Assembly (NCBI GenBank): GCA_035368605.1
Contig: DAOSLF010000001.1
Span: forward strand, 22,877 to 86,876
Reading direction: 5' to 3'
DNA length: 64,000 nt
Source: Candidatus Omnitrophota bacterium
GTDB lineage: Bacteria > Omnitrophota > Omnitrophia > Omnitrophales > Aquincolibacteriaceae
Shown piece by piece: positions 17,236 through 44,888 of the stretch. The first letter of the stretch is position 1. Each line of letters opens with the position of its first letter. Made by a program: the position numbers and the translations under genes. The notes below the pieces were generated by a model, which saw only the letters and a program-made list of their open reading frames with translations, had not been told where the DNA came from and ran no database searches.

Positions 17236-17236
17236 A

Positions 17237-17317: not shown

Positions 17318-17330
17318 GTTTAAGGACGAC

Positions 17331-21483: not shown

Positions 21484-22242
21484 TCAGATCAGGGACAGAC
21501 CGCCATCCGCGATGACGATCTGACCGACGATCCAGGAAGATTCGGGTGAGCAGAGGAATGTGATGACGCGCGCGAGGTCTTCGGGGGTTGCGACGCGGCC
21601 GGCCGGTGTCCTTTTGACGACTTCTTGCTTGAAGATCTCGAAAAAGGGGAATGCCTTCAGCGCATCCGTGTCCACAAGCCCGCCGGAGACTCCGTTCACC
21701 CGGATTCCCTTGGGCATCAGCTCCACCGCGAGATAACGGATCAGGCTTTCGAGCGCCGCCTTGGAGATACCGATGGCCCCGTAATTCGGGATGTAGCGGT
21801 GAGAACCCAGACTTGAGATCGCGAGGATCGCTCCTTCTTTTTTTGCCTCCATGCCCGGCAGGACCTTCTGGACCATGGCGAGGAAGGCCTTTGTGTTGAT
21901 GTTCATCGAAAGGTCGTATTGATTCATCTTGAGTTTGTGGACCGGCTTGAAGGCCCCGAGCGCGGCGTTGTGGATGAGGATGTCGATCGATCCAAAAGTT
22001 TTGGTGACATTCTCGAACAGCGCGGGGAGTGCGTCGAGGTCGCCGACATTGCACTGGAAGATTTCGGCTTTGACGCCTTTCAAGCGGATTTCTTCGGCCG
22101 TTTTTTGCGCGGCGCCTTCGTTCTGAAGATAATTGACCGCAATGTTCGCACCTTTTTCCGCGAGCGCGAGGGCCGTGGCTTTTCCGATCCCGCGGGATGC
22201 GCCAGTAATGAGGGCTGTCTTGCCATGAAGCGGTGTCGTCAT
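21484..22242 (-). CDS. SDR family reductase, FabL/FabG-like (enoyl- or ketoacyl-ACP reductase)
   Basis: MTTPLHGKTALITGASRGIGKA. Catalytic YGAIGISKAALE (YxxxK). Divergent from the radical SAM gene. Confidence 0.8.
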   Translation of the reverse strand: MTTPLHGKTALITGASRGIGKATALALAEKGANIAVNYLQNEGAAQKTAEEIRLKGVKAEIFQCNVGDLDALPALFENVTKTFGSIDILIHNAALGAFKPVHKLKMNQYDLSMNINTKAFLAMVQKVLPGMEAKKEGAILAISSLGSHRYIPNYGAIGISKAALESLIRYLAVELMPKGIRVNGVSGGLVDTDALKAFPFFEIFKQEVVKRTPAGRVATPEDLARVITFLCSPESSWIVGQIVIADGGLSLI

Positions 22243-22329
22243 AGGCCGAGAGAATAGCAAAGAACACCGGAAAGCTCAATTTAATTCCCCGTGGCCGGTA
22301 AAACAAATTCGGGTAAAAAAGGGAAAGTC

Positions 22330-22344: not shown

Positions 22345-23946
22345 ATGAAAGTTCTCCTGATTAATCCAAAATTCGCCCCGACGATCTGGTCGTTCGACGG
22401 TCTTCGCCCGTTCACGGGCACGAGTTTTTCGACGACCCCTCTCGGGCTCGCGACCGTCGCCGCCTTGACGCCCGCTTCCTGGGAAGTCGAAATTCTCGAC
22501 GAGAATGTCGAGCCGATCGATTTTGAAAAACCGGCCGATCTCGTTGCCGTCAGCGCCTTCAATGTCCAATACCGTCGCGCGATCGAGATCGCGCGCGAAT
22601 TCAGATCCCGCGGCCGGAAAGTGGCGTTTGGCGGACCGTATTGCAGCCTTTTTCCGGAGGCGTTCGAGGGCAAGGCCGACCACCGCATCGTGGGGGAGGC
22701 CGAGGACATTTGGCCGCTTTTTCTTCGTGATTTCGAAGAAGGCAAGGCGCTTGAGCTTTATGTGGCTCCGAAAGCGAGCGTGGATATCCGGAAGAGCCCT
22801 GTCCCGCGTTTTGATCTTATTAAGGGCGATCGATACAATATGTTTTCCCTTCAGACGACTCGAGGTTGTCCCTATAACTGTGAATTTTGCGATATCATCA
22901 TCATGGACGGCCGGAAACCCCGTACGAAGACCGTTCAGCAGGTGCTTGCCGAAGTGGACCATTGCGTTCAGCAGGGGGCCCATTACATCGTGTTCGGTGA
23001 CGCGAATTTTATCGGCAATATCGGCTTTGCCAGGGAACTGCTCACGGCCCTCGCGGATTATTCGAAAAAGAACGGCTACCCGATCGAGTTCTCATGCGAA
23101 TTGACGATCAATGTCGCCCATCACCCCGATCTTCTGGAGCTTCTTCAGGAGGCGAACTTCTACGCCGTTTTCGTGGGGATCGAATCGCCGAGGAAGCAAA
23201 GCCTCCTCGAAGCCGGAAAGTATCAGAACACGCGCGAGGACATCATCGAAGACATCAAGCGTATCCAGTCGTATCACATTTCGGTTGTTGCCGGCATGAT
23301 CGTCGGCTTTGATTCCGACGACAAGGGAATCTTCAAGGAGACCTACGATTTTCTCCAGGAACTCGGCATTGCGTTTACGACCTGCGGGACGCTGATGGCC
23401 CTGCCTCACACGCCGCTCCTTAAACGCCTTAAGGCCGAAGGGCGGCTTCTCGATCTCGAGTGGACGGGCATGAACGGTCACGGCGCTTCGGACTGCAATT
23501 TCATCCCGAAGCTCATGACGCTCGACGAACTGCGTAAAGGCTATAATTGGCTTAGCCGCTGCCTCTATCGTTACGATAGTTACGCTGACCGCCTTGTCGC
23601 CACGCTGAACCGTTTCAGGAACCGTAATAAAGAACATAAAAGAGCGAGTCTCGACACGAAATTCCTGAGCGTTCTCGTCAAGGTCTTCGCCTATTACACG
23701 CTGACCTTCGATCTCAAAAGGATGTCGTTTTTTTACGGAACCATGTGGCGTGTCGCGGTGGGCGGGCCCTTTTCTGTCGGGAAATGGCTGGAATTCTTCC
23801 GCTGGATCGCGACGCATCGCGCTTTTCGCCAATATGTGATGGAAACCCAGGGAGATCCGGAAGAAATGGATCCCAACTCGCCTCCGTTCGATGTCGAGTG
23901 TGCCCCGGTCACGGACGACAGTCCCCGGGAAGAGGTGTTGGTTTAA
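22345..23946 (+). CDS. B12-binding-domain radical SAM enzyme (class B radical SAM)
   Basis: N-terminal cobalamin-binding-like domain (MKVLLINPKF...DLVAVSA). Radical SAM cluster motif CPYNCEFC. About 530 aa with a C-terminal extension. Confidence 0.8.
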   Translation: MKVLLINPKFAPTIWSFDGLRPFTGTSFSTTPLGLATVAALTPASWEVEILDENVEPIDFEKPADLVAVSAFNVQYRRAIEIAREFRSRGRKVAFGGPYCSLFPEAFEGKADHRIVGEAEDIWPLFLRDFEEGKALELYVAPKASVDIRKSPVPRFDLIKGDRYNMFSLQTTRGCPYNCEFCDIIIMDGRKPRTKTVQQVLAEVDHCVQQGAHYIVFGDANFIGNIGFARELLTALADYSKKNGYPIEFSCELTINVAHHPDLLELLQEANFYAVFVGIESPRKQSLLEAGKYQNTREDIIEDIKRIQSYHISVVAGMIVGFDSDDKGIFKETYDFLQELGIAFTTCGTLMALPHTPLLKRLKAEGRLLDLEWTGMNGHGASDCNFIPKLMTLDELRKGYNWLSRCLYRYDSYADRLVATLNRFRNRNKEHKRASLDTKFLSVLVKVFAYYTLTFDLKRMSFFYGTMWRVAVGGPFSVGKWLEFFRWIATHRAFRQYVMETQGDPEEMDPNSPPFDVECAPVTDDSPREEVLV

Positions 23947-24095: not shown

Positions 24096-24731
24096 GTGGA
24101 ATCGCTCTCAAATACACTTCGGACATACCAGCGAAAACTGTTGGATACGTTAGTCAGGTGTCATTTTCGTCCGACGCTCGAAGCGAGGGCGGAATCATTC
24201 GTCAGGCTCTTTGAAACGTTTCTCCCGAAAGGGAGCCGGATTCTGGACCTCGGCGGCGGCTGGGGGTTCTATAGCGAACCGCTTGCCCGGCGCGGGCACG
24301 ATTCGCTCGTTCTTGATGTCGTAAAGCCGGGATATCAAAAGGCACCGGTTGTCATTTACGACGGGAGCAAGATCCCGTTCGGGGACAAAAGCTTTGATGT
24401 AACCCTCCTTGTGACCATGTTACATCATGTGCCGGACCCGGAGGCGCTGATGCGGGAGGTGACGCGCGTGACGCGCTCGCGGGTGGTCGTGGTCGAGGAT
24501 CTTTATCATCATGGAGCGGGACGTTTCTGGACCATCCTTCGGGACCGGTTGCTCAATATGGAGTTCGTGGAACATCCGCATCAGTTCCGGACCCACGGGG
24601 ATTGGCTTCATTTTTTTTGTAGTAAGGGGTTCCGGCTTGAGAAGTTCGCGCGGGTCTATACTTGGCTCGCGGGATTCCGTATTCTGAACGGTGTTTATGT
24701 TTGGGAGTGTGAACCATCGCTCCGCCATTGA
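24096..24731 (+). CDS. class I SAM-dependent methyltransferase
   Basis: Motif I ILDLGGGWGF and motif post-I VLDVV. The start is uncertain; the in-frame GTG at 24096 is the first start downstream of the promoter. Confidence 0.65.
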   Translation: MESLSNTLRTYQRKLLDTLVRCHFRPTLEARAESFVRLFETFLPKGSRILDLGGGWGFYSEPLARRGHDSLVLDVVKPGYQKAPVVIYDGSKIPFGDKSFDVTLLVTMLHHVPDPEALMREVTRVTRSRVVVVEDLYHHGAGRFWTILRDRLLNMEFVEHPHQFRTHGDWLHFFCSKGFRLEKFARVYTWLAGFRILNGVYVWECEPSLRH

Positions 24732-24766: not shown

Positions 24767-25177
24767 ATGTCCACTGTTTCGATCGAAAAAGTGCTCTGGA
24801 TCAGGGAGGGAGAAGGGATCGCCGCTTGCGGCCGCATCCCGAGTGACTCGGAGTTTTTTCGCGATCATTTCCCCGAGTTCCCGGTCCTGCCGGGCGTGCT
24901 GGCGCTTGAGATGCTCAAACAGACAGCCGAGAAGTACTTGGCGTCGCTTGGGAACGGCGCGGGGGGCCGTTATTTCCTGAAGCATATCCGCGCGACGCGT
25001 TTCACGAAATATCTGCGTCCCGGGGACGAATGGGAAAGCCGGCTCACGCTGACGCAGAGTTCGGACGAAGAAACGGCTTGGGACGCCAGGCTTTATTATC
25101 ACGGTGAGGTCGCGGTATCCGCCAGACTGACGCTCGCCAGGGTCAAGAATCCTCAATCATCGGCGACATCGTTATAA
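24767..25177 (+). CDS. FabZ/FabA-like hot-dog 3-hydroxyacyl-ACP dehydratase (catalytically competent)
   Basis: FFRDHFPEFPVLPGVLALEMLKQ contains the catalytic His (HFP) and Glu of FabZ. Confidence 0.8.
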   Translation: MSTVSIEKVLWIREGEGIAACGRIPSDSEFFRDHFPEFPVLPGVLALEMLKQTAEKYLASLGNGAGGRYFLKHIRATRFTKYLRPGDEWESRLTLTQSSDEETAWDARLYYHGEVAVSARLTLARVKNPQSSATSL

Positions 25178-25196: not shown

Positions 25197-25607
25197 ATGA
25201 ATAACGAGATTTTCAAGAAAGTGCAGGAAACATTAGCCGGCGCGCTTGGTGTTGACGCCTCTGACGTCACGCCCGACGCCTCCCTGAAGAGAGACCTTGG
25301 CGCCGAATCGATCGATTTTATCGACATCATCTTCCGCCTGGAAAAAAGTTTCGACCTCAAGATTCCCGCGAACGACCTTTTCCCGAGCCATATCTTCACG
25401 AACGAACGTTTCGTGAAAGAGGGAATGGTCACTCCGGAAGGGATTCATGAACTCCGCACGAAACTTCCGTACCTTGACCTCGGGGCTTTCGACAAGGACC
25501 CGCAGGTTGTGAAGCTGGCCGATTATTTCACCGTCAAGATGATCCTCCGTTATCTGGAAGAGCGGCTGGGAAAATCCTCGGGTTGTTCCGGCACCTGCAA
25601 ATCGTGA
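25197..25607 (+). CDS. acyl carrier protein with roughly 55-aa C-terminal extension
   Basis: AAGGAG RBS. DLGAESIDFIDIIFRLEKSF is the ACP phosphopantetheine-attachment helix II region (Ser in AES). Unusual C-terminal tail ending SSGCSGTCKS. Confidence 0.8.
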   Translation: MNNEIFKKVQETLAGALGVDASDVTPDASLKRDLGAESIDFIDIIFRLEKSFDLKIPANDLFPSHIFTNERFVKEGMVTPEGIHELRTKLPYLDLGAFDKDPQVVKLADYFTVKMILRYLEERLGKSSGCSGTCKS

Positions 25608-25978
25608 CGGTCAAAACGCGCCGTCTTCATGGGGTCGGGGTCGATCTCGTATCCCGTTCGCGCATGAAAATGTTTCTGTCCCGCCATCGCGATATGATCA
25701 CGCGCAGGTTCCTGAATGACAGTGAGCGCCGGCGCCGCACCAACATCGGTCTCACGGAACTTGCGGAACTTTTCACCGCCAAGGAAGCTTTCTTCAAGGC
25801 CTGTAATGAGCCCTGGATGGGGTTAGGAGGTTTTCGGGGAATGCGGATCACGGAACGTCGCGGCGACGGATTCACCATGGAATGGAAGGTAGCTGGCACC
25901 CGGCGATGTTATCGCGGTGAGGGGGTTTTTTTCCGTGACGGTGATCTGGTCGGTGCCCACACGATGATCTGGAGTTGA
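25604..25978 (+). CDS. acpS: holo-ACP synthase (4'-phosphopantetheinyl transferase, AcpS type)
   Basis: GVGVDLV near the N-terminus and FTAKEAFFKA match AcpS motifs (GxGxDxV, AxKEAxxKA). GTG start overlaps the ACP stop (GTGA). Confidence 0.7.
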   Translation: MTVKTRRLHGVGVDLVSRSRMKMFLSRHRDMITRRFLNDSERRRRTNIGLTELAELFTAKEAFFKACNEPWMGLGGFRGMRITERRGDGFTMEWKVAGTRRCYRGEGVFFRDGDLVGAHTMIWS

Positions 25979-25980
25979 GT

Positions 25981-26415
25981 ATGCGTTGGCTTCTTCTTGA
26001 CAAAGTTCTCTCGATCCACCGTGGCAAACGAGCCGTGACCGAATCCCGTGTTCCCTGCGCGCCCTACTCAAGCGAAGTCCTTTTTGTCGAAATGATGGCC
26101 CAGACCGGAGGTCTTCTGGTCGGAGCGGAAAGCGATTACCGGAACGACGTGATCTTCGCGAAGATCGAGTCTGCTTCGTTCGCCGGGGTTCCGGCCCCAG
26201 GTACTCCGATCACGGTTGAGGCGTTCGCGGACGGGCTCGCTCCCGAGGGTGGGTGGATCGAAGGTGTGATAACAATGGCCGGCGTGGTCATCGCGAAGGC
26301 AAAACTGCTTCTTATGTCTGTCGGGCGGCTCGTCCCGGGGCATTCTCAACCCATCACCTTCCATGATAATTTCATGGAGCATTTCAAGGTCCGGGAGAAG
26401 GTGTCGGTATCATGA
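25981..26415 (+). CDS. hot-dog fold dehydratase-like protein lacking the catalytic His (probable non-catalytic DH partner)
   Basis: Hot-dog length and FVEMMAQTGGLL central helix resemble FabZ, but there is no HxP/HFP motif. Confidence 0.6.
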   Translation: MRWLLLDKVLSIHRGKRAVTESRVPCAPYSSEVLFVEMMAQTGGLLVGAESDYRNDVIFAKIESASFAGVPAPGTPITVEAFADGLAPEGGWIEGVITMAGVVIAKAKLLLMSVGRLVPGHSQPITFHDNFMEHFKVREKVSVS

Positions 26416-27701
26416 CCAGGCACCGGGTGGTCGTCACGGGGTTTGGTGTTATCAGCGCCTGCGGGAACGGATGGGAACCCTATTGGGACAGCGCTCTCCA
26501 GGGACGCTCGGCGGTTCGTGAAGTCGAACGTCTCAAACTGAACGGATTTTCTTTCAAATATGCCGGAACGATTCGGGATTTTGACCCCAAACAATACGTG
26601 GAGAACCGAAAATCCCTCAAGGTCATGTCCCGCGAGATCCAGCTCGCCGTGGGGGCCGCGAAGCTTGCCCTCCAGGATGCCGGTCTTTTCGGGACCGCTT
26701 ATGACCAGTCCCGCTTCGGTGTGACGCTCGGGACCGGTATCATCAATAACGATCTTGACGAGATCGGTGTGGGTTTCAAGAACGCGATCGATGGCTCGGG
26801 ACGTTTTTCGATGGCGAAGTTCGGCCAGGAAGGTGTCCGCTCTCTTTTTCCGCTCTGGTTCCTGAAATACCTTCCGAATATGCCTGCCTGTCACGTTTCG
26901 ATCGCTTACCATCTCCGGGGACCCAGCAACACGATCACGACATCCTCGGCGGCGGGGGCCCAGGCGATCGGGGAGGCGTATCGGGTGATCGAGCGCGGCG
27001 ACGCGGATATCATGCTGGCCGGCGGGACCGATTCAAAATTGAATGCGATGGGGATCTCCCGTTTCCATCTGCTCGGTCTTCTCTCAAAACGGGCCGGATT
27101 GCCGGAGCATGTCTACACGCCGTTCGATGAGCGTCACGACGGGATCGTGCTCGGGGAAGGAGCCGGCATTCTTGTTCTGGAATCGCTGGAGAACGCGAAA
27201 CGGCGCGGGGCTCCCATCTATGCCGAGATCACGGGTTATGGTTCCTCTTCGGATTTCAATTTCGATCCGCGTGACGAGGATGATTTCACCGGCAAGCGGG
27301 TCGCGATGCGGCGAGCGCTCGAAGACGCGGGGATCGAACATCACGACGTCGATGTGATCGTCGCAAACGGGAGCGGCGTTCCCCAGGGGGATATCCAGGA
27401 AGCCCTTGCCATCCACTCGTTCTGTATGGGGTCGTTCGACAAACAGAGCGTGACCGCGCTCAAATCCGTGACGGGAGATCTCGTCTACGGCTCGGGTGGT
27501 GTCGAGGCTGTGATCGCCGCGTTGATCGCCAACAAGCGGGTCGTACCGCCCGTGACCAATCTTAAAAAACCTTATCCGGAATGTCCGCTGCCGCTTGTCC
27601 GGGACAAAGCCAAGTCCGCCGACGTCACGAACGTCATGTTCAACAACTTCGGTTTCGGCGGACAGAACGCGTCACTGGTGTTCAAACATGTCAAAGCGTA
27701 G
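26412..27701 (+). CDS. ketosynthase-like protein lacking Cys/His/His catalytic triad (chain-length-factor-like KS-beta)
   Basis: Thiolase-fold KAS architecture. Active-site positions read ITTSSAAGAQAIGEA (Cys to Ser), DVIVANGSGV (His to Asn) and KSVTGDLVYGSGGVE (His to Asp). ATGA coupling to the upstream gene. Confidence 0.85.
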   Translation: MTRHRVVVTGFGVISACGNGWEPYWDSALQGRSAVREVERLKLNGFSFKYAGTIRDFDPKQYVENRKSLKVMSREIQLAVGAAKLALQDAGLFGTAYDQSRFGVTLGTGIINNDLDEIGVGFKNAIDGSGRFSMAKFGQEGVRSLFPLWFLKYLPNMPACHVSIAYHLRGPSNTITTSSAAGAQAIGEAYRVIERGDADIMLAGGTDSKLNAMGISRFHLLGLLSKRAGLPEHVYTPFDERHDGIVLGEGAGILVLESLENAKRRGAPIYAEITGYGSSSDFNFDPRDEDDFTGKRVAMRRALEDAGIEHHDVDVIVANGSGVPQGDIQEALAIHSFCMGSFDKQSVTALKSVTGDLVYGSGGVEAVIAALIANKRVVPPVTNLKKPYPECPLPLVRDKAKSADVTNVMFNNFGFGGQNASLVFKHVKA

Positions 27702-28983
27702 GATCGTCGTTACAGGAGTGGGGGCGGTGACGCCTCTCGGGAACAATGTCAGGGATACCTGGCTCCGTGTCACACAGGGTAAATCGGGGATCGGTCCTAT
27801 TACGCTTTTTGACGCCTCGACGTTCAACACGCGGATCGCGGGCGAAGTGAAAAATTTCAATTTTGAACGCTGGCTCGAACGGAACCCGCCACTCGCGTCT
27901 GCCACGCGCAGTACGTTCTTCGCGCTTCAGGCCGCCGCGGAAGCCTATAAAGACGCGATGTTGAAGCCGTTCAGTGTTGATTCGCGGCGCTTCGGCCTTT
28001 ATTTCGGTGCCGGGGACAGCGGAATCGATTTCGAGCCGTTTATCAAGACCCTCATGGCCTCCTTCGGCCCGGGCGCCGAGTTGGTCGATAAGGGGAAATA
28101 CCTCCACCATGCCCCGGAACACATGAGCGCCTTGCGCGAGCTCGAAAGCCAGCCGTTCATGACGGTAACGCATCTGACGCGCCTTTTCGACATCCGGGGT
28201 CCCGTGTCGAACTGTCTGACAGCCTGCGCGGCTTCCTCGCAGGCGATCGGCGAAGCTTACGAATGGATCAAGCGCGGTGATGCGGATGTTATGATGTCGG
28301 GCGGTTCTCATTCCATGGTCTATCCGCTGGGTATCGCGGGTTTCAGTCTCCTGACCGCGCTGTCGACGCGTAATTCGGAGCCCGAGAAAGCGTCGCGGCC
28401 GTTCGACAAGAAACGTGACGGTTTTGTGATCTCGGAAGGCGCTGGCGTGCTGATTATCGAGGAACTCCAGCACGCGAAGAAACGCAAGGCGCATATTTAT
28501 GGTGAGGTTGTCGGCTACGGTTCGACAGCCGACTCGTACCGGCTTACGGATATGGATCCGGAGGCTCGCGGGGCCTCGGAGGCGATGCGGATCGCGATGA
28601 CGAAAGCCGGCATCGGACCCGCTGACGTTGATTACATCAACGCGCACGGGACCTCGACCTCGGTCAACGACTCTCTTGAAACAACCGTAATCAAGAAGGT
28701 CATGGGGGAGTATGCGAAGAAGATCCCTGTGAGCTCGACCAAATCGATGCTTGGGCATATGATCGCGGCGGCGGGTGGTGTGGAAGCGATCTTCTGCCTG
28801 CTCGCAATGCGTGATTCGATCATCCCTCCGACGATCAATTATGAAGAGCCCGACCCGGAACTCGATCTGGACTATGTTCCCAACGTTGCCCGCCGCACCG
28901 ACGTGAATGTCGCGCTTTCCAACTCATTTGGCTTCGGCGGTCAGAATATCTGCTTGGCATTGAGGAGATACGATGGCGCATGA
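27688..28983 (+). CDS. beta-ketoacyl-ACP synthase (FabF-like KS-alpha, catalytic)
   Basis: Start MSKRRIVVTGVGAV. CLTACAASSQAIGEA (Cys), YINAHGTSTSVND (His) and KSMLGHMIAAAGGVE (His). Overlaps the KS-beta 3' end by 14 nt. Confidence 0.9.
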   Translation: MSKRRIVVTGVGAVTPLGNNVRDTWLRVTQGKSGIGPITLFDASTFNTRIAGEVKNFNFERWLERNPPLASATRSTFFALQAAAEAYKDAMLKPFSVDSRRFGLYFGAGDSGIDFEPFIKTLMASFGPGAELVDKGKYLHHAPEHMSALRELESQPFMTVTHLTRLFDIRGPVSNCLTACAASSQAIGEAYEWIKRGDADVMMSGGSHSMVYPLGIAGFSLLTALSTRNSEPEKASRPFDKKRDGFVISEGAGVLIIEELQHAKKRKAHIYGEVVGYGSTADSYRLTDMDPEARGASEAMRIAMTKAGIGPADVDYINAHGTSTSVNDSLETTVIKKVMGEYAKKIPVSSTKSMLGHMIAAAGGVEAIFCLLAMRDSIIPPTINYEEPDPELDLDYVPNVARRTDVNVALSNSFGFGGQNICLALRRYDGA

Positions 28984-30064
28984 TCTTGTTTTTATGACCG
29001 GAGCGACCGGTGTGCTCGGTCAGGAGCTTGTCAAAAAACTGCTGCTCACGACGGAGTCCGATATCGCGATTCTTTCACGCGCGAAGAATCGCGTGCCCCA
29101 TGCCGAGCGTGTCCGGAAGATCCTGAAGGCGGCGGGGATGGACGCCCATTTCGGTTCGCGGGTCCGCGTGGTGGAAGGGGATGTCACGAAGCGTAAATTC
29201 GGATTGAAGAAAGAGGATCTCGATTTTCTCGAAAGGGAATGCCGCGTTTTTTATCATATTGCCGCCCTGACCGCGTTGAATGGAACGGATAAGGAATGCC
29301 AGCAGATTAATGTGGGCGGGACCGAACACGCGCTTGAGCTTGCGTGGGATCTCCGGAAAAAGGGGAATCTCGAGCGCTTTATCTATTTCAGCACCGCGTT
29401 CGTGGCCGGCAGTGTCTGGAATTACCGGTCTACGGAGGATTCGCTTCCCGAGAAACCCGCATTTGCAAACTACTACGAGTCCAGCAAGCATGAGGCAGAA
29501 GGCAAGGTCCGGAAGGCGATGGGACACGGCCTGCCGGTGACCATCATCCGGCCGAGCATCGTGGTCGGCGACTCCGTGACGGGCGAGGTTTCCGATTTTA
29601 ACGTGATCTACCCTTTCATCAAACTGTTCGCGCACGGCATCCTGACGAAGCTTCCGACCCACCCTGAGAATACGTTCAATATCGTGCCGATCGATTTCGT
29701 CATCAACGCGACGACGGCCATCGTCAGGAATCCCCGATCGATCAACAAGTGTTTCCATCTGGTGTCGCCGGAGCCGCCTTCCATCGGTTCCCTGGTGGCT
29801 CTCCGCGAATCTTTCCCGAAGGTCGCCAAGATCGAGATGATCGATCCGTCGAGCTTTAAAAAGGACCAGCTGGACCCGCAGGGGCAGATGGTCTTTTCGA
29901 TGCTGGAGCCCTATCTCGGTTATTTGAACGGCAAGTTGACCTTCGACACCTCGAACACCGAAGAAATCCTGCGTGATACGGACGTCCGGATGCCTGAGAC
30001 GGGTCCCGCTTTCCTGAAAACGCTGATCACCTATGCCGCCAAGGCGGGATATTTGGCGATCTGA
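28973..30064 (+). CDS. stand-alone thioester reductase (NAD(P)-dependent, extended SDR; fatty acyl-ACP/CoA reductase-like terminal R domain)
   Basis: FMTGATGVLGQELVKKLL (TGxxGxxG) and YYESSKHEAE (YxxxK) with the overall TR-domain layout. Overlaps the KS stop. Confidence 0.75.
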   Translation: MAHDLVFMTGATGVLGQELVKKLLLTTESDIAILSRAKNRVPHAERVRKILKAAGMDAHFGSRVRVVEGDVTKRKFGLKKEDLDFLERECRVFYHIAALTALNGTDKECQQINVGGTEHALELAWDLRKKGNLERFIYFSTAFVAGSVWNYRSTEDSLPEKPAFANYYESSKHEAEGKVRKAMGHGLPVTIIRPSIVVGDSVTGEVSDFNVIYPFIKLFAHGILTKLPTHPENTFNIVPIDFVINATTAIVRNPRSINKCFHLVSPEPPSIGSLVALRESFPKVAKIEMIDPSSFKKDQLDPQGQMVFSMLEPYLGYLNGKLTFDTSNTEEILRDTDVRMPETGPAFLKTLITYAAKAGYLAI

Positions 30065-30577: not shown

Positions 30578-31753
30578 CTATCGCCAGTGTGTCGGGTGTT
30601 TCAGCGCGGCCATTTTCAGGGCATCCGCGAGGATGAGCGTGAAAACGGCGGCGGCAAGCGGATGAAACAATGCTGATACCGGATTCGCCTTGACTATCGT
30701 ATGGGTCTTAAACGCCGTGATCCAGATGATGAACGCAAGTCCTGTCGCCAGAATCCCGGCCAGTGAATTTCCGAAACAGAAAGGCAGGATGGCGAACGGT
30801 AACACCGAAAAAAGAAAAGTGCTCAGGACACAGCGTAGAAGGTCCGCCGGATTTTGTTCAAAGGCGTGAAGGTAGATGCGCCGCCACCCCCGCCATAGCG
30901 TCTCGAACGAGTCATACATCCGGGTACCATAGAGATTCATTCCGAAAGCGCAAATCCCCTTTGCCCCGGTTTCCTTGGTCTTTCTCATCAGCGCGAAGTC
31001 TTCGAGAAAAGCCTCCTTGACCGCGTGATGACAGCCGAGTTTCCGGTAATGGCTGTGCCGGAGAAGGAGGTACTGGCCGTTTCCGAAGTAGACCTTTGAT
31101 TCGGGATCGTTGATCTTCCGGACAGGGAACCATAGCCCCATGTAGCCCATCGCGCAGGGCTGGATGAGGTTTTCCCAGAAGCCGTGAGCCAGACAGCGGG
31201 GAAGCAGGGTCAGGAGGTCAAGGGAGTTTGTTTCCGAAAAAGCGATCGCGGCGTCGACGCTTCCCGGTTCGTGTCTTGTGTCGGCGTCCGTGAAAAGCAG
31301 CCAGTCGCCTTTGGCGTAGTCTTTGCCGAGATGAAGCGCATAGTTCTTTCCCGTCCAGCCTTCAGGAGTCTCGGGAGTATTGAGATATCCCAAAAAGGGT
31401 CCGTCGCTACTGTCCTTTTTTGTACCGAAAAAGGTGCCTGACCCCTTGATTTCCTCAGCGCCAAGGTCTTTCAGGATCGCTTCGGTTCTGTCTGTGGAGC
31501 CGTTATTGATGACGATGATCTCATCGCTCTCTCGGAGCTGGCTCAAAAAGGGCCGGACGCATGCCGCGATGTTTTTTTCCTCGTTCCGGGCCGGGATCAG
31601 GACCGTCACAGAACCTTTGCGAATGTTTCCGGAAGGAATTCTGAGCGCGGGGGCTTGGGCCAGTTCGGAGAGGGACCGGATGCTACGGTAAATCCATACA
31701 CCAAGCGCAGTCAGGAGATAGGTCAGGAGGATGGGCTCCATAGAGTCAGGCAT
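30578..31753 (-). CDS. membrane-anchored GT2 glycosyltransferase
   Basis: N-terminal TM, VLIPARNEE, IIVINNGSTDRT and FTDADT (DxD), plus C-terminal hydrophobic helices. Start assumed at MPDSMEPILLTY. Confidence 0.7.
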   Translation of the reverse strand: MPDSMEPILLTYLLTALGVWIYRSIRSLSELAQAPALRIPSGNIRKGSVTVLIPARNEEKNIAACVRPFLSQLRESDEIIVINNGSTDRTEAILKDLGAEEIKGSGTFFGTKKDSSDGPFLGYLNTPETPEGWTGKNYALHLGKDYAKGDWLLFTDADTRHEPGSVDAAIAFSETNSLDLLTLLPRCLAHGFWENLIQPCAMGYMGLWFPVRKINDPESKVYFGNGQYLLLRHSHYRKLGCHHAVKEAFLEDFALMRKTKETGAKGICAFGMNLYGTRMYDSFETLWRGWRRIYLHAFEQNPADLLRCVLSTFLFSVLPFAILPFCFGNSLAGILATGLAFIIWITAFKTHTIVKANPVSALFHPLAAAVFTLILADALKMAALKHPTHWR

Positions 31754-31949: not shown

Positions 31950-33371
31950 ATGAGTGTTTCAGATTACGGAGCCCGGTTTCTTCCCAAAGAGTCCCTTGCC
32001 GGGATCGTTTCCGATTTCCAGCCCGGGCGAAAGGTCCGCGTGGCGGGGAGACTCATGTCCCGCCGTGATATGGGCAAGAGCACGTTCGCAGACATCAAGG
32101 ATGAAGGCGGACGCATTCAGACCTATGCCAAAAAAGACGTGCTCGGCGACGAATCTTACGCCGCGTTCAAGTCGCTGAGTTTGGGTGACATCATCGGGCT
32201 TGAGGGCGAGCTCTTTCTCTCGAGAACGGGCGAGAAGACGATCAAGATCGAAAAGTATGAGCGGCTTTCCAGGATCGTCCGCACACTCCCGGAGAAATGG
32301 CACGGCCTGAAGGATATCGAGACGCGTTACCGCCGGCGGTATGTGGACTTGATCGTCAATGATGAGGTCCGCGAAACTTTCAGGAAGCGGAGTCGCATCA
32401 TCAGCGAGATACGTAAATTCCTCGACGCTAAAGGATTCATGGAGGTCGAGACCCCCATGATGCAGCCTCTCGCGGGAGGTGCCCGCGCCAAACCGTTCGT
32501 GACGCATCACCATGCCCTCGCGACCGATCTTTACCTGCGTGTTGCTCCCGAGCTGTATCTGAAGCGACTTCTGGTGGGCGGTTTCGAAAAGGTGTATGAG
32601 ATCAACCGGAATTTCCGCAACGAGGGAATCTCCGTTCGCCACAACCCCGAATTCACGATGATGGAGCTTTACCAGGCGTACGCGGATTACACGGACATGA
32701 TGAGCATCACCGAAGAACTGGTTCGTCATCTGGTGATGATGCTTTATGGCAAGGACGAAATCCCGTACGGGGATCGCACCCTGAATTTCAAGGCCCCGTG
32801 GAAGCGGATTTCCTTTTACGGCGCTCTCGAAGAGACGACGGGGATGGATTTTCGCAAAGTGAACGTGCGGGAAGCCGCGAAAAAACTTCACGTCAAATTC
32901 GACGAGGATATGGAGGATATCGATGTCCTGAATGAGATCTTTGGTGAGAAGGTCGAGAAAAACCTTTGGGACCCGACGTTCGTCGTCGATTATCCGACGG
33001 TCATGACGCCCCTCGCGAAGGCGAAGGCGGAAGACCCTGAGCTTGTGTACCGGTTCGAACTTTTTATCGCCAAAATGGAAGTGGCGAATGCCTTTTCGGA
33101 GCTGAACGATCCCGCGGTCCAGCGCGGGCGGCTTGAAAAACAGCAGGAGTTGATCGGCGAGCACAAGGAGATCGATGATGATTTCCTGATGGCGCTTGAA
33201 TACGCGATGCCTCCGGCGGGGGGGCTCGGCATCGGTATCGACCGACTCGTGATGCTGCTCACCAACCGGATTTCGATTCGGGATGTGATCCTGTTCCCGC
33301 AACTTAAGCCGAAGAAGAAGGCTGAATTGGAAAACGAAATGGAAACGACGGAAGAAGGTTCCGCTCAATGA
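31950..33371 (+). CDS. lysS: lysyl-tRNA synthetase (class II)
   Basis: OB-fold N-domain (KVRVAGRLMSRRDMGKSTFADIKD). Class II motifs (FRNEG, GGLGIGIDRLVMLLT). Confidence 0.9.
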   Translation: MSVSDYGARFLPKESLAGIVSDFQPGRKVRVAGRLMSRRDMGKSTFADIKDEGGRIQTYAKKDVLGDESYAAFKSLSLGDIIGLEGELFLSRTGEKTIKIEKYERLSRIVRTLPEKWHGLKDIETRYRRRYVDLIVNDEVRETFRKRSRIISEIRKFLDAKGFMEVETPMMQPLAGGARAKPFVTHHHALATDLYLRVAPELYLKRLLVGGFEKVYEINRNFRNEGISVRHNPEFTMMELYQAYADYTDMMSITEELVRHLVMMLYGKDEIPYGDRTLNFKAPWKRISFYGALEETTGMDFRKVNVREAAKKLHVKFDEDMEDIDVLNEIFGEKVEKNLWDPTFVVDYPTVMTPLAKAKAEDPELVYRFELFIAKMEVANAFSELNDPAVQRGRLEKQQELIGEHKEIDDDFLMALEYAMPPAGGLGIGIDRLVMLLTNRISIRDVILFPQLKPKKKAELENEMETTEEGSAQ

Positions 33372-34678
33372 AATTCGAGCTTTTTATCGCCCACAGGCAT
33401 CTGACCCGGCGACGGAAGACGGGATTCATCTCCCTTATTTCGTTGATATCGATGGGCGGGATCGCGATCGGTGTGATGGCGCTTATTATTGTGCTTTCGG
33501 TCATGACCGGGTTCGATAATGAACTCAAACGCAAGATCGTCAGCATCCAGCCGCATCTCCGGATCGAAAAGTCGGAGGATTGGACGAACTCGGCCGACGA
33601 TATGGCGAAGATCCGGGCGTTAAACATCCCCGGGCTCAAGATTGTAATGCGATTCATCGAAAAGCAGGCGATCCTTCGCACCGATACCGCCGCGCAGGGC
33701 GTGGTGGTGATGGGGCTGGATACGGAGAACGGGGATTTTTCGATCTATGAAAAGAATCTTGTGTCCGGGACGCTTGGTTTCCAGGAGTCCGTTTACACGG
33801 AAAAGAGACGCCGCTGGTGGTCCTTCAAAAGCAAGGTCGAGAAGTCGAATGTCCCCAGTATCGTGCTGGGCGAGATCCTGGCTTCCCGGCTTCGGGTTCA
33901 GGTGGGGGATGTTATCCATCTGATCACGCCGGAGCCCGAAAAAAAGAACCCGTTCATGCCGCTCCCGATGCATGTCAAGACGTGGCCGGTCATCGTGCGG
34001 GGGATTTTTCATATCGGGATGTCCGATGCCGACGCCCAGGTGGCGTTGCTCAGCCTTGAGACGGCCCAAAAGTTCTATCACATGGAGAATAAGATTTCGG
34101 GACTGAGTCTTCAGTTCAGCGATGTGGATGAGGCGGAAAAATGGAAGTGGGTTCTGGCGGGTCATTTCCCGATGCAGTACCGGCTCGCGTCCTGGTATGA
34201 CATGAATCAGCATTTTTTTCAGGCGCTGAAGGTCGAAAAATTCCTCATCAGCATTCTGCTCTCCCTGATCGTTGTCGTGGCGGCGTTCAATATCATTTCG
34301 ACCCTGATCATGGTCTCCATGGAAAAGACCAGGGATATCGGGATCCTCCGCGCCCTTGGGGCCACGCGGTCCGCGATCCGGAGAATCTTCCTGATCGAAG
34401 GGATGAGTTACGGGTTCTGGGGAATGGTGATCGGCGTGGGCATGGGCGTGTGGGGGGCGCTTCACATCAACGATCTTTCGGAATTTCTCAAGACGACGTT
34501 CGGATTCGAGGTTTTCCCGAGAGATGTTTATATTTTTGACAGAATTCCGGCGGAAGTCCGCATGGAGGATATCATGGTGGTCGCCGGGCTGGCGTTCATT
34601 CTTGCCGTGATCGCGGCGCTTTATCCCGCGCACCGGGCAGCAAGCCTCAAACCGGTGGAGGCGCTTCGTTATGAATAA
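33368..34678 (+). CDS. lipoprotein-releasing system permease (LolC/LolE, FtsX family)
   Basis: MKFELFIAHRHLTRRRKTGFISLIS. Four TM helices with a large periplasmic loop. Confidence 0.8.
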   Translation: MKFELFIAHRHLTRRRKTGFISLISLISMGGIAIGVMALIIVLSVMTGFDNELKRKIVSIQPHLRIEKSEDWTNSADDMAKIRALNIPGLKIVMRFIEKQAILRTDTAAQGVVVMGLDTENGDFSIYEKNLVSGTLGFQESVYTEKRRRWWSFKSKVEKSNVPSIVLGEILASRLRVQVGDVIHLITPEPEKKNPFMPLPMHVKTWPVIVRGIFHIGMSDADAQVALLSLETAQKFYHMENKISGLSLQFSDVDEAEKWKWVLAGHFPMQYRLASWYDMNQHFFQALKVEKFLISILLSLIVVVAAFNIISTLIMVSMEKTRDIGILRALGATRSAIRRIFLIEGMSYGFWGMVIGVGMGVWGALHINDLSEFLKTTFGFEVFPRDVYIFDRIPAEVRMEDIMVVAGLAFILAVIAALYPAHRAASLKPVEALRYE

Positions 34679-35366
34679 CGCGGCGGCGATCCTCAGCGCA
34701 TCCGGACTGCGGAAGGATTATGACACCGTGACCGGTAGCCTCGAAATCCTGCGAGGGGTTAATCTGGAGGTTTGCCAGGGGGAAATGCTTTACATCACGG
34801 GTAAATCGGGGTGCGGGAAGTCGACCCTGCTTCATCTCCTGGGCGGTCTTGACCGACCGACGGACGGGAAGCTTTTCTTTCGGGGGCGTGAGATGACCGG
34901 CATGCCCGAACGCGAGATCGCAAGAATCCGCTGTCGCAATATCGGTTTCGTGTTCCAGTTCTATCATCTGTTGCCGGAGCTCACGGTCCATGAAAATGTA
35001 TTACTCCCCACACTTATCGCGAAAAAAAAGGACTCGGGCTGGGTCAAGGAGGTTCTGAAACGTGTGAAGCTCTGGAACCGGAGGACGCATTTCCCGTCCG
35101 AGCTCTCCGGCGGGGAGAAACAGCGCGTGGCGATCGCCCGGGCCCTCGCCAATCGACCGGACGTCGTTCTTTGTGACGAACCGACCGGCAATCTCGACGA
35201 AGAAACGGCCGGGACGATTACGTCGTTGCTCGCGGAATTGAACCAGAAAGAGGGTCACACATTTCTTATCGTGACCCATGATGAAGAAATTGCCCGGACA
35301 GGGAGCCGGTCGCTGACGCTTCACGAAGGTCAGCTGATGCCGGCTTCGAATGTTTTTAAACATTGA
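34671..35366 (+). CDS. lolD: lipoprotein-releasing system ATP-binding protein
   Basis: Walker [13 protein letters not shown] signature [15 protein letters not shown], Walker [13 protein letters not shown]. Confidence 0.85.
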
Positions 35367-36326: not shown

Positions 36327-36848
36327 ATGATCTGCAATGTGTGCGGGACAAAGGAAGCGACGATTCACCTGACCGAGGTTGTGAGCGGTCAGATGGCGGA
36401 AGTGCATATCTGCGAGCAGTGCGCCGAAGAGAAGGGGACGGATTTCAAGACCTATTTCAACTTTGGCGACTTCTTCACGGGTTTCGCGGGGATCGGAAAA
36501 CTTCTTGAGACGCCGGGGGAAAAAACCGCGGTCGCCTGCAAATCCTGCGGTATGACCTTCGAGGAATTCTCCAAACAGGGACGTCTTGGATGCGCGCAGT
36601 GTTATACCGCGTTTCATCGTCAGCTTGAAGCCGTGATCAAACAGGTCCAGCGGGCGGGGGTCCATGTCGGCAAAAAACCGTCCAGAATCCCGAAGGATGT
36701 TCGGCGCGCTCACGATCTCCGCCAGCTTCAGGACCGTCTGCGCAAATGCATCCAGAACGAGGCGTTTGAGGAAGCGGCGCGCCTTCGCGACGAGATCAGG
36801 CAGATCGAAGACAAGAACAAGCGCCCGAGGAAAACAAAAAATGACTGA
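36327..36848 (+). CDS. mcsA: protein-arginine kinase activator McsA-like (zinc-finger plus UVR domain)
   Basis: Paired CxxC motifs (CNVCG...CEQC; CKSCG...CAQC). C-terminal UVR motif AFEEAARLRDEIRQIE. Confidence 0.7.
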   Translation: MICNVCGTKEATIHLTEVVSGQMAEVHICEQCAEEKGTDFKTYFNFGDFFTGFAGIGKLLETPGEKTAVACKSCGMTFEEFSKQGRLGCAQCYTAFHRQLEAVIKQVQRAGVHVGKKPSRIPKDVRRAHDLRQLQDRLRKCIQNEAFEEAARLRDEIRQIEDKNKRPRKTKND

Positions 36849-37905: not shown

Positions 37906-37908
37906 CCC

Positions 37909-39621: not shown

Positions 39622-39667
39622 GCGAGTGTCGTTCGTCATCGTACCATAAAATCTCCGGAGGTTTTTC

Positions 39668-44873: not shown

Positions 44874-44888
44874 AGGAATAATGTTTTT

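What the first reader, a model, noticed from the sequence alone, without database searches (positions are those of the whole stretch)
26412..28983. KS-beta/KS-alpha pair: the first ketosynthase has lost Cys, His and His
In the first KS homologue the three catalytic positions read Ser (ITTSSAAG), Asn (VANGSGV) and Asp (VTGDLVYG). The downstream, overlapping KS retains the Cys (TACAAS), His (HGTST) and His (LGHMIAAAG). This is the signature of a heterodimeric KS/chain-length-factor system rather than FabF/FabB housekeeping synthases. It implies controlled chain length or an unusual starter.
Basis: seen in the sequence. Interest (0 to 1): 0.7.

Follow-up and report, generated by a model that had tools for sequence, protein, structure and literature searches.

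The report
Ketosynthase pair with a dead partner
Two overlapping fatty-acid-type ketosynthase genes in an uncultured Omnitrophota bacterium encode one intact enzyme and one partner without catalytic residues, a pairing conserved across Omnitrophota and Planctomycetota that probably builds an unidentified envelope lipid.

Summary
KS1 (26412..27701) reads Ser/Asn/Asp where FabF has Cys/His/His. KS2 (27688..28983, 14-nt overlap) keeps Cys/His/His.

This is not decay. KS1 is under purifying selection and has hundreds of orthologues. In 43 of 80 species-level loci from Omnitrophota and Planctomycetota it lies directly upstream of a KS2 orthologue. KS2 orthologues always keep the triad. KS1 orthologues lose it in lineage-specific steps. 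The most conserved part of KS1 is the helix-loop-helix region, which in KAS II dimers forms the interface and lines the partner's acyl tunnel.

The operon adds a long ACP, its own PPTase, an active dehydratase plus a His-less partner, a thioester reductase and a methyltransferase. A FabL-like enoyl reductase, a B12 radical-SAM enzyme and a GT2 glycosyltransferase flank it. This is a dedicated FAS-like lipid line.

Both subunits sit closer to FabF than to actinorhodin, ishigamide, aryl-polyene or anammox KS/CLF proteins. The closest functional precedent is the anammox amxFabFmut/amxFabF2 heterodimer (bioRxiv, May 2026). A 2023 catalogue already lists KS-CLF hits in Omnitrophica.

It is a new variant of a known kind. 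Heterodimerisation and product are untested.

The parts
21484..22260 (-). SDR, FabL-like enoyl-ACP reductase, divergently transcribed
   Evidence: Pfam adh_short_C2 at 234 bits. The best NCBIfam hit is FabL NF005975 at 306 bits (cut-off 328), against FabG at about 173 bits. It is conserved next to the cluster in Omnitrophota and some Planctomycetia.
22345..23946 (+). B12-binding radical SAM enzyme; accessory, present in only some orthologous clusters
   Evidence: Pfam B12-binding + Radical_SAM + DUF4070. The best NCBIfam hit is TIGR04072 'lipid biosynthesis B12/rSAM' at only 79.8 bits against a cut-off of 360. It is found in L001-L007, L020 and L021 only.
24096..24731 (+). Class I SAM methyltransferase, first gene of the operon
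   Evidence: Pfam Methyltransf_11/23/25. Gene calls in identical contigs agree. A promoter-like site lies at 24030-24059 (consensus match only).
24767..25177 (+). FabZ/ApeI-like 3-hydroxyacyl-ACP dehydratase, catalytic His and Glu present
   Evidence: Pfam FabA 44.7 bits, and FabZ NCBIfam hits below cut-off. The motif DHFPEFPVLPGVLALE is conserved in all orthologues.
25197..25607 (+). Dedicated acyl carrier protein, 136 aa, with a non-canonical region after helix II
   Evidence: PP-binding covers residues 8-62. Only residues 5-60 match solved ACPs. The full length is conserved in related loci.
25604..25978 (+). AcpS-type 4'-phosphopantetheinyl transferase
   Evidence: Pfam ACPS 44.6 bits. Gene call in L001.
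25975..26415 (+). DH': hot-dog paralogue lacking the catalytic His segment; overlaps the KS-beta start by 4 nt
   Evidence: Weak FabZ NCBIfam hit (31 bits, E 1.6e-7) and no Pfam hit. In the alignment the His segment is deleted and the Glu is kept (VEMMAQTGG).
26412..27701 (+). KS-beta: full-length KAS II homologue with Ser179/Asn319/Lys351/Asp356 in place of Cys/His/Lys/His
   Evidence: AlphaFold model with pLDDT 72.9, whose best fold matches are FabFs.
27688..28983 (+). KS-alpha: intact KAS II (Cys180/His/Lys/His), 14-nt overlap with KS-beta
   Evidence: It belongs to a 100%-bootstrap clade of paired KS-alpha sequences.
28973..30064 (+). Stand-alone thioester reductase (NAD_binding_4), 11-nt overlap with KS-alpha
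   Evidence: Pfam NAD_binding_4 180.5 bits. TIGR01746 164.5 bits, below its 213 cut-off. Terminator-like hairpins follow at 30071-30084 and 30178-30195 (consensus matches only).
30578..31741 (-). GT2 glycosyltransferase (HpnB/CruG-like), convergent with the operon
   Evidence: Pfam Glycos_transf_2, with HpnB at 124.8 bits and CruG at 108 bits, both below cut-off. It is conserved beside the cluster in Omnitrophota.

Best explanation
KS-beta (26412..27701) and KS-alpha (27688..28983) are translationally coupled subunits of an obligate heterodimeric KAS II-type condensing enzyme. KS-alpha carries the only functional Cys-His-His site. KS-beta is a catalytically inert, FabF-derived partner. Its remodelled and highly conserved helix-loop-helix region forms the dimer interface and part of KS-alpha's acyl tunnel, so it probably sets chain length or substrate shape in the way a chain-length factor does. 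The pair is the condensing step of a dedicated type II FAS-like line. Its parts are its own long ACP, an AcpS-type PPTase, an active FabZ-like dehydratase with a His-less partner DH', and a FabL-like enoyl reductase. Ketoreduction and malonyl loading are presumably borrowed from primary FAS. I infer that chains start by decarboxylation of malonyl-ACP, are elongated and reduced, are possibly methylated by the class I MTase or the B12-rSAM enzyme, and are released by the thioester reductase as an aldehyde or alcohol. The product may then be glycosylated by the adjacent GT2 to give an envelope lipid. Shown: the sequence features, their conservation, and the gene context. Inferred: heterodimerisation, tunnel control, priming, and the product.
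For: The motif register was verified against FabF structures. A chain of overlapping junctions runs from the ACP to TR: ACP/PPTase, PPTase/DH' (with the TTG start at 25975) and DH'/KS-beta overlap by 4 nt, KS-beta/KS-alpha by 14 nt, and KS-alpha/TR by 11 nt. The MT-DH and DH-ACP junctions are short gaps. Beta-then-alpha adjacency is found in 43 of 80 species loci, with a conserved overlap of about 13-14 nt in Omnitrophota. KS-alpha is always C-H-K-H, while KS-beta is degenerate. The KS-alpha and KS-beta subtrees mirror each other, for example {L025,27,31,33} at 99 and 100, {L040,72,73,84,86} at 98 and 94, and {L049,59,75,85} at 100 and 85. For KS-beta, dN is 0.09 against saturated dS, about 1.4 times the KS-alpha dN. 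In KS-beta the helix-loop-helix region 105-162 is the best conserved part, with 25 of 58 positions invariant including PLWxLKYLPNMPACH. The triad positions themselves vary (S/A; H/N/D). Both subunits carry 12-15 extra residues in this region relative to FabF. There is a modest charge asymmetry in that region, -4.3 for KS-alpha against -1.9 for KS-beta. The DH/DH' split is shown. The precedent is the anammox pair: amxFabFmut lies upstream of amxFabF2, the two co-purify, they are active only together, they decarboxylate malonyl-ACP and form acetoacetyl-ACP, and residues of the dead subunit tune chain preference.
Against: No physical or structural test of heterodimerisation was possible. The monomer model has low confidence exactly in the interface region. 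Ser at the Cys position, Lys351, the GFGG loop and, in most orthologues, the second His are conserved, so some residual function of the beta pocket in other lineages is not excluded. One orthologue at the beta position (P0096) and L023 have a full C-H-K-H triad, so 'inert' is not a property of the whole family. The window lacks a FabG-type KR that the Planctomycetota variants have in the operon. KS-alpha is nearly a bona fide FabF by NCBIfam score, and I could not check whether this genome has another fabF. The product is entirely inferred.
Confidence: 0.7

Rival explanations
1. KS-beta is not inert but has a different catalytic role. It could be a malonyl-ACP decarboxylase or priming subunit, or a Ser-nucleophile acyltransferase that loads a starter unit.
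For: Ser is strongly preferred at the Cys position (96 of 118). Asn319, Lys351 and the GFGG loop are near-invariant. His356 is retained in 89 of 118 orthologues. From established knowledge, Cys-to-Ser or Cys-to-Ala KAS I/II mutants and KSQ/CLF domains can still decarboxylate malonyl-ACP.
Against: 19 of 118 orthologues have Ala at the nucleophile position. Planctomycetota relatives have Glu, Asp, Ala or Val there. In this window the second His is Asp and the first is Asn, which removes both residues used for decarboxylation. The catalytic positions vary more than the interface region.
Confidence: 0.12
2. The cluster is the organism's main (housekeeping) fatty acid synthase. KS-alpha is simply its FabF, and KS-beta is an accessory or regulatory paralogue.
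For: KS-alpha scores 487 bits on TIGR03150 (cut-off 493.75) and passes the NF005589 FabF subfamily cut-off. The cluster lies among housekeeping genes in conserved synteny: SecA-Lnt upstream, aaRS-LolCDE downstream. It appears near-universal among the Omnitrophota sampled. No other fab genes are in the 64-kb window.
Against: The operon has a non-canonical 136-aa ACP with its own PPTase, plus a thioester reductase, a methyltransferase and a GT2. These are unnecessary for phospholipid acyl chains. Paired KS-alpha sequences form a 100% clade separate from canonical FabFs, and a Planctomyces MAG (L071) has a canonical FabF as well as a beta-like gene. fabH, fabD, plsX and acc genes are absent here.
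Confidence: 0.13
3. KS-beta is a decaying duplicate (pseudoenzyme remnant) with no function.
For: The catalytic positions drift H to N to D among close relatives.
Against: The ORF is intact, with hundreds of orthologues at 55-86% identity. dN is far below dS. 106 positions are at least 98% invariant. Translational coupling is conserved. The family spans two phyla.
Confidence: 0.02

Closest known systems
Anammox Cluster I amxFabFmut/amxFabF2 heterodimer (Granatino et al., bioRxiv 10.64898/2026.05.19.726425; presumably PDB 9s5h/9s5i)
   Same: Both are FAS-like rather than aromatic-PKS-like pairs from the PVC superphylum. The dead subunit is encoded immediately upstream of the active one. Both subunits are full length. 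In the dead subunit the first His is Asn, the Lys is kept and the second His is acidic: V-N-K-E in amx, S-N-K-D here. The best structural neighbour of the dead subunit is B. subtilis FabF in both cases. A dedicated unusual ACP and a FabZ paralogue sit in the cluster, and this window also has a B12-rSAM gene.
   Different: They are not orthologous in my tree. amxFabF2 groups with Iga11 (59%) and amxFabFmut falls outside the KS-beta family, whereas KS-alpha here is sister to canonical FabF. BLAST scores agree: KS1 gets 260 bits to BsFabF and 171-198 to amxFabFmut, and KS2 gets 363 and 258-287 to amxFabF2. The Asp is specific to this species. KS-beta keeps the GFGG loop that amxFabFmut has lost. 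The rSAM is far below the TIGR04072 cut-off. No phytoene-desaturase homologue was seen. A TR, an MT and a GT2 are present here.
Actinorhodin-type KS-alpha/CLF of aromatic type II PKS (PDB 1TQY)
   Same: Two adjacent KAS II paralogues, one without the Cys, together with a dedicated ACP. The presumed heterodimer has a single active site.
   Different: The gene order is reversed (beta first). The Cys position is Ser rather than Gln. There are no cyclases or aromatases. Similarity is weak: KS1 gets 135 bits to the act CLF and 260 to FabF. There is no supported grouping in the tree. The context is reducing and FAS-like.
Highly reducing type II PKSs: ishigamide Iga11/Iga12 and aryl polyene ApeO/ApeC with ApeI/ApeP
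   Same: KS plus a dead partner work with discrete KR and DH enzymes. The DH/DH' pair here splits into His-containing and His-less paralogues exactly as ApeI and ApeP do. The accessory set recalls APE clusters: MT and GT2 in the window, and MMPL exporter and LolA-like protein in related loci.
   Different: E. coli ApeC is a 240-aa truncated protein with no BLAST match to KS1. ApeO scores only 89-131 bits. No aryl-starter ligase, thioesterase or ApeR-type KS is in the window. An enoyl reductase is present, which argues against a polyene product.
FabF-proximal 'non-actinobacterial' KS-CLF clade catalogued in 2023 (Microb Genom 9:mgen000965, PMC10132072), and the Cys-less FabF paralogues of Rhodopirellula noted by Rattray et al. 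2009 (PMC2649909)
   Same: [quoted passage not shown] The RB4527 pattern Glu-His-Lys-Asn equals the E-H-K-N pattern of the solitary Planctomycetota relatives found here.
   Different: Those are listings only. No cluster architecture, conservation analysis or function has been described for the Omnitrophota family, and I could not confirm that this exact family is among the catalogued hits.

Membership tests
KS-alpha/KS-beta (CLF) heterodimer, generic definition | Two KAS I/II-family paralogues encoded side by side and co-transcribed | tested here: met
   14-nt overlap. The adjacency is conserved in 43 of 80 species loci.
KS-alpha/KS-beta (CLF) heterodimer, generic definition | One subunit keeps Cys-His-His and the other lacks the nucleophilic Cys | tested here: met
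KS-alpha/KS-beta (CLF) heterodimer, generic definition | The two proteins form a physical heterodimer in which the dead subunit shapes the acyl tunnel | not testable with these tools
   Only indirect evidence is available: mirrored trees, interface-focused conservation and charge asymmetry. Only a monomer could be modelled.
Aromatic (actinorhodin-type) type II PKS | CLF has Gln at the Cys position | tested here: not met
   Ser179 here. The position is S/A in the family and E/D/A/V in Planctomycetota relatives.
Aromatic (actinorhodin-type) type II PKS | Sequence membership of the act KS/CLF clades | tested here: not met
   KS1 scores 135 bits to the act CLF and 260 to FabF. The NJ tree gives no supported grouping. 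PDB ranking agrees.
Aromatic (actinorhodin-type) type II PKS | Cyclase/aromatase genes in the cluster | tested here: not met
   None appear among the Pfam/NCBIfam results for 20-32 kb.
Anammox Cluster I (amxFabFmut/amxFabF2) | Dead FabF homologue immediately upstream of the active one | tested here: met
   compared with the preprint text.
Anammox Cluster I (amxFabFmut/amxFabF2) | Orthology of the two subunits with amxFabFmut and amxFabF2 | tested here: not met
   NJ tree and BLAST. Caveat: the amx sequences were taken from machine-read text of Suppl. Fig. S1 and contain small errors.
Anammox Cluster I (amxFabFmut/amxFabF2) | Cluster partners: amxACP, amxFabZ, TIGR04072-type B12-rSAM, phytoene-desaturase homologue | tested here: not met
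   The rSAM scores 79.8 bits against a cut-off of 360. The ACP and DH match canonical ACP and FabZ structures at least as well as any others. No desaturase is present in the window.
Aryl polyene (APE) type II PKS | ApeO KS with the short ApeC-type CLF | tested here: not met
   ApeC is 240 aa and has no BLAST hit. ApeO scores 89-131 bits.
Aryl polyene (APE) type II PKS | Dehydratase pair of ApeI (His) and ApeP (no His) type | tested here: met
   Alignment. Similarity to ApeI is weak (E 0.002), so this is an analogy of design and not proven orthology.
Aryl polyene (APE) type II PKS | Aryl starter activation (ApeH), thioesterase (ApeK), and no enoyl reduction | tested here: not met
   No AMP-ligase or thioesterase is in the window, and a FabL-like ER is present.
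Housekeeping FabF (TIGR03150) | Score above the curated equivalog cut-off | tested here: inconclusive
   KS-alpha scores 487.2 against 493.75, just below, but passes NF005589 (480 against 387). KS-beta scores 361, well below.

The most novel reading that the evidence does not exclude
The Omnitrophota/Planctomycetota KS-beta/KS-alpha family is an independent, FabF-derived origin of the KS/CLF design. The heterodimer came first, and the beta active site was then lost repeatedly and stepwise. The observed series runs from C-H-K-H in L023 and P0096, to S-H-K-H, to S-N-K-H, to S-N-K-N, to S-N-K-D, with separate E/D and A-x-K-F routes in Planctomycetota. This would give a natural series that recapitulates how chain-length factors evolve. 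In Omnitrophota the cassette would make a core envelope lipid, for example a methyl-branched fatty alcohol glycoside, rather than a secondary metabolite.
Probability: 0.3. Interest if true: 0.65.

Novelty: new variant of a known kind. Interest (0 to 1): 0.5.

Why it matters
Omnitrophota are a widespread, uncultured phylum whose lipids are essentially unknown. A conserved, dedicated FAS-like line with reductive release sits next to Lnt, Lol and Mla genes, and it is a concrete candidate for a signature envelope lipid.

For enzymology, the family offers FabF-like KS/CLF pairs at several stages of active-site loss. That makes the origin of chain-length factors testable.

It also bears on the anammox literature. 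Dead-FabF/live-FabF pairs with the same gene order are not confined to ladderane producers within the PVC superphylum, although the two systems do not appear orthologous.

Tried and rejected
1. Orthology with anammox amxFabFmut/amxFabF2. I rebuilt 16 reference sequences from the preprint's machine-read alignment. The tree and BLAST do not support orthology.

2. Membership of the APE family. I fetched the E. coli CFT073 ape cluster. ApeC is a 240-aa protein with no match to KS1, and ApeO is distant.

3. Specific similarity of the ACP or DH to anammox amxACP or amxFabZ structures. Canonical ACP and FabZ entries score as well or better.

4. Fused KS-KS proteins among the 150 nearest representatives as 'Rosetta-stone' support. 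Twenty-two exist, each with one intact and one degenerate half, in both orders. Their relation to this family is unclear, so I give them little weight.

5. dN/dS. dS is saturated (pS about 0.7), so only the qualitative result (dN far below dS) is usable.

6. Conserved neighbours of the solitary beta-like genes of Pirellulales and Planctomycetaceae. None were found.

7. Antisense ORFs within the KS genes (27691..28758, 26346..26912 and 29075..29758, all minus strand). They have no Pfam match and are treated as shadow ORFs.

8. My initial label 'KR' for the divergent SDR was wrong. It is FabL-like, an enoyl reductase. True FabG-type KRs occur in the operon only in Planctomycetota variants.

9. 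Literature search for 'chain length factor' plus 'Omnitrophota' returned nothing.

10. Heterodimer modelling was not attempted. The structure tool takes one chain and admits only window or the search for homologous proteins sequences.
Full report
**Observation.** The window region 26412..28983 holds two plus-strand KAS II-type genes.
- KS1 runs from ATG 26412 to TAG 27701 (429 aa).
- KS2 is best started at ATG 27688, because MSKRRIVVTG aligns with the FabF N-terminus. It ends at 28983 (431 aa).
- The two genes therefore overlap by 14 nt.

phmmer alignments to B. subtilis FabF (4ls5) fix the register. In KS1, Ser179 replaces the nucleophilic Cys (ITTS-S-AAG against VTA-C-ATG). Asn319 replaces the first His (VA-N-GSG against NA-H-GTS). 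Asp356 replaces the second His (VTG-D-L against MTG-H-L). The active-site Lys (K351) and the GFGG loop are kept. KS2 has all of Cys/His/Lys/His. A direct KS1/KS2 BLASTP (36% identity, 255 bits) gives the same register.

**Source and spread.** Identical contigs and the names attached to the nearest proteins place the window in a Candidatus Omnitrophota MAG. KS1 has 120 or more listed orthologues at 55-86% identity, and every one that carries a source name is labelled Omnitrophota or Omnitrophica.

A scan of one genome per species used two KS1-specific peptides, G[IV]INNDLD and LKYLPNMP. It found more than 568 relatives. The best 80 loci come from Omnitrophota and from many Planctomycetota. These include Kolteria novifilia Pan216, Phycisphaerae, Sedimentisphaerales, Gemmatales, Fimbriiglobus, Pirellulales, Thermoguttaceae and Blastopirellula.

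**Is the dead subunit maintained?** Yes.
- Against the 85%-identical orthologues, KS1 has dN of about 0.09 with saturated dS. This is about 1.4 times the dN of KS2 and similar to the neighbouring TR and DH genes.
- 106 positions are at least 98% invariant over 118 orthologues.
- The best conserved segment is 105-162, with 25 of 58 positions invariant, including the block P147-L-W-x-L-K-Y-L-P-N-M-P-A-C-H161. In KAS II dimers this helix-loop-helix region forms the dimer interface and covers the partner's acyl pocket.
- The former catalytic positions vary. Position 179 is S (96), A (19), C (2) or T (1). Position 319 is N (114), Y (3) or H (1). Position 356 is H (89), N (28) or D (this species only).

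Selection therefore acts on the interface and tunnel region, not on a catalytic centre. Both KS1 and KS2 carry 12-15 extra residues in this region relative to FabF. Across the paired loci the region is more acidic in the alpha subunit (mean -4.3) than in the beta subunit (-1.9). The helix it packs against is slightly basic in beta (+0.9) and neutral in alpha. This asymmetry is weak. It runs in the same direction as the main text of the anammox preprint describes for that heterodimer; the preprint's Suppl. Fig. S3 legend gives the opposite polarity.

**The pair as a unit.** In 43 of the 80 species loci a KS1-type gene is followed on the same strand by a KS2-type gene. Five further loci end too close to the gene to tell. 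In the closer Omnitrophota loci the estimated junction is mostly an 11-16-nt overlap.

All 45 KS2-type sequences have C-H-K-H. The KS1-type sequences show several patterns:
- S-N-K-[H/N/D], A-N-K-H and T-N-K-N
- S-H-K-H (L020-22)
- C-H-K-H (L023)
- A-[C/S/A]-K-F (a Planctomycetia/Omnitrophota group)
- many E/D-x-K-x patterns in Planctomycetota

One orthologue, P0096, lies in the beta position of an otherwise typical cluster and also has C-H-K-H.

I built a neighbour-joining tree (86 sequences, 422 columns, 100 bootstraps). All paired alpha subunits form a 100% clade that is sister to canonical FabFs (74%). The beta subunits lie on the other side of the tree. Sub-clades of alpha and beta mirror each other with high support. 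The simplest reading is an old duplication of a FabF-like gene, co-inheritance of the two copies, and later lineage-specific erosion of the beta active site.

**Context.** The window operon has overlapping junctions from the ACP to the TR. In order it encodes:
- a class I methyltransferase
- a FabZ/ApeI-like dehydratase
- a 136-aa ACP
- an AcpS-type PPTase
- DH'
- KS-beta
- KS-alpha
- a stand-alone thioester reductase

A promoter-like site lies before the MTase, and terminator-like hairpins follow the TR. These are consensus matches only.

Upstream, on the plus strand, is a B12-binding radical SAM gene that only some orthologous clusters have. Divergent from it is an SDR whose best model is the enoyl-ACP reductase FabL: 306 bits against a cut-off of 328, with FabG at about 173 bits. 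Convergent downstream is an HpnB/CruG-like GT2.

DH keeps the FabZ His/Glu motif. DH' has lost the His-bearing segment and keeps the Glu, the same split as E. coli ApeI and ApeP. The operon therefore contains two active/inactive paralogue pairs.

Across the two phyla the conserved core is DH-(FabG-type KR)-ACP-(PPTase)-DH'-KS-beta-KS-alpha. The TR, MTase, GT2 and an MMPL-type transporter are the Omnitrophota additions. Planctomycetia variants add a HAD protein, a class III aminotransferase, an AMP-binding enzyme, an LPG_synthase_TM protein and a hexapeptide transferase. Other variants add an alpha/beta-hydrolase and a DUF1571/LolA-like protein.

The flanks of the window cluster are housekeeping genes: SecA, Lnt and EF-P on one side; an aaRS, LolCDE-like genes, McsB, ClpC, MlaEFD and IspDF on the other. 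The SecA-Lnt ... aaRS/MMPL synteny is conserved in Omnitrophota. Antisense ORFs inside the KS and TR genes have no family match.

**Comparison with known systems.** Both subunits are closer to canonical FabF than to any characterised KS/CLF.

| Reference | KS1 (bits) | KS2 (bits) |
|---|---|---|
| B. subtilis FabF | 260 | 363 |
| E. coli FabF | 232 | 290 |
| amxFabF2 | 194-208 | 258-287 |
| amxFabFmut | 171-198 | 183-201 |
| Iga11 | 172 | 191 |
| act KS | 145 | 220 |
| act CLF | 135 | 134 |
| ApeR | 186 | 213 |
| ApeO | 89 | 131 |
| ApeC | no hit | no hit |

These values come, and the PDB ranking agrees. An AlphaFold model of KS1 (pLDDT 72.9, pTM 0.80, weakest in 36-71, 111-122 and 140-155) has FabFs as its best fold matches, led by B. 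subtilis FabF entries (4ls8, 4ls5). The preprint reports the same nearest neighbour (4ls5) for amxFabFmut.

The functional precedent is that preprint. In anammox Cluster I the dead FabF (V-N-K-E) is encoded just upstream of the live one. The two proteins co-purify and are inactive alone. Together they decarboxylate malonyl-ACP and form acetoacetyl-ACP. Residues of the dead subunit's helix-loop-helix tune chain-length preference.

My tree does not place the anammox proteins inside the family found here. The accessory genes also differ. I therefore treat the two as parallel designs, or as very anciently diverged. The caveat is that the anammox sequences came from machine-read text.

Earlier listings exist. 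Rattray et al. 2009 noted Cys-less FabF paralogues in Rhodopirellula. Their RB4527 pattern, E-H-K-N, is the pattern of the solitary Planctomycetota relatives. A 2023 catalogue reports KS-CLF hits in Candidatus Omnitrophica and Planctomycetes within an uncharacterised FabF-proximal clade. I found no description of this cluster or of its function.

**Mechanism proposed.**
- Shown: one intact and one degenerate KAS II, translationally coupled, co-inherited and under selection, inside an operon with its own ACP, PPTase, dehydratase pair and reductive release enzyme, next to a FabL-like reductase.
- Inferred: the two KS proteins form an obligate heterodimer with one active site. KS-beta's conserved helix-loop-helix shapes the tunnel.
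- Inferred: priming is by malonyl-ACP decarboxylation, since no starter ligase or KAS III is encoded.
- Inferred: ketoreduction and malonyl transfer come from primary metabolism, because the window lacks the in-operon FabG seen in Planctomycetota.
- Inferred: the chain is largely saturated, because an enoyl reductase is present. It may be methylated, and is released by the TR as an aldehyde or alcohol. The GT2, and in relatives an MMPL exporter, could turn this into a surface glycolipid.

Confidence is about 0.7 for the heterodimer and inert-partner core. It is much lower for the product.

**Verdict.** Three corrections apply. Loss of all three residues is specific to this species, and the family signature is Cys to Ser/Ala plus first His to Asn. 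The system is FAS-like and FabF-derived, not a member of the classical type II PKS KS/CLF clades. A housekeeping role for KS-alpha in Omnitrophota is not excluded. It is a new variant of a known kind and of moderate interest.

Noticed in passing
window 25975..26415 and 24767..25177: There is a second active/inactive paralogue pair in the same operon. DH keeps the FabZ His/Glu motif. DH' has the His-bearing segment deleted but keeps the Glu, as E. coli ApeI and ApeP do. Some Planctomycetota DH' orthologues still have the His.
   Followed up: partly
window 25197..25607: The cluster's ACP is 136 aa. Only residues 5-60 (helices I-II, with the Ser in ESIDF) match solved ACPs. Most of the rest, about 75 aa, matches no solved ACP and is conserved in Omnitrophota and Planctomycetota loci.
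   Followed up: partly
L089 5433-6725 (P0096); L023 3899-5179; L020-L022: Some orthologues sitting in the KS-beta position have a complete C-H-K-H triad (P0096, L023) or only Cys to Ser (L020-22). Loss of the active site was therefore stepwise and lineage-specific, or was reverted.
   Followed up: partly
L041-L083 (32 loci, Pirellulales, Planctomycetaceae, Thermoguttaceae, Blastopirellula): These loci carry solitary KS-beta-like genes with Glu or Asp at the Cys position (mostly E-H-K-N, the RB4527 type of Rattray 2009). No KS-alpha lies within 8 kb, except in L061 and L071, and there are no conserved neighbours. In L071 one lies just downstream of a canonical FabF. Their partner and role are unknown.
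   Followed up: partly
window 21484..22260 (-): The SDR beside the cluster is FabL-like (enoyl-ACP reductase), not FabG-like. The window cluster has no ketoreductase of its own, whereas Planctomycetota variants have a FabG-type KR between DH and ACP.
   Followed up: yes
window 22345..23946: This B12-binding radical SAM gene (with DUF4070) has TIGR04072 'lipid biosynthesis B12/rSAM', the ladderane-associated model, as its best NCBIfam match, but far below cut-off. It is present only in a minority of orthologous clusters.
   Followed up: partly
L012, L018, L020-22, L024, L048 downstream of GT2; L037, L033, L023, L040, L051: Related clusters add an MMPL/RND-type transporter (about 775 aa) or a DUF1571/LolA-like protein plus an alpha/beta-hydrolase. 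A Planctomycetia variant adds a HAD protein, a class III aminotransferase, an AMP-binding enzyme, an LPG_synthase_TM protein and a hexapeptide transferase. This suggests different head groups on a common chain.
   Followed up: partly
window 14560..18848 and 31950..35366: The cluster is embedded in envelope and housekeeping genes. SecA and Lnt lie upstream. An aaRS and LolC/E-LolD-like ABC genes lie downstream, with MlaE/F/D at 44061..46474. The SecA-Lnt side of this synteny recurs in other Omnitrophota.
   Followed up: partly
P0124-P0245 (22 proteins of 730-878 aa): Among the nearest 50%-identity representatives are fused double-KS proteins with one intact and one degenerate half. Nineteen have the intact half first and three have it second. 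Their origin and relation to this family were not resolved.
   Followed up: no
window 36664..42130: A McsB-type protein arginine kinase, a DUF4139/DUF4140 protein and a ClpC/ClpB-type AAA+ chaperone lie together. An McsA-like UVR-domain gene is called upstream in the identical contigs. This Gram-positive-style module sits in a diderm-type genome.
   Followed up: no
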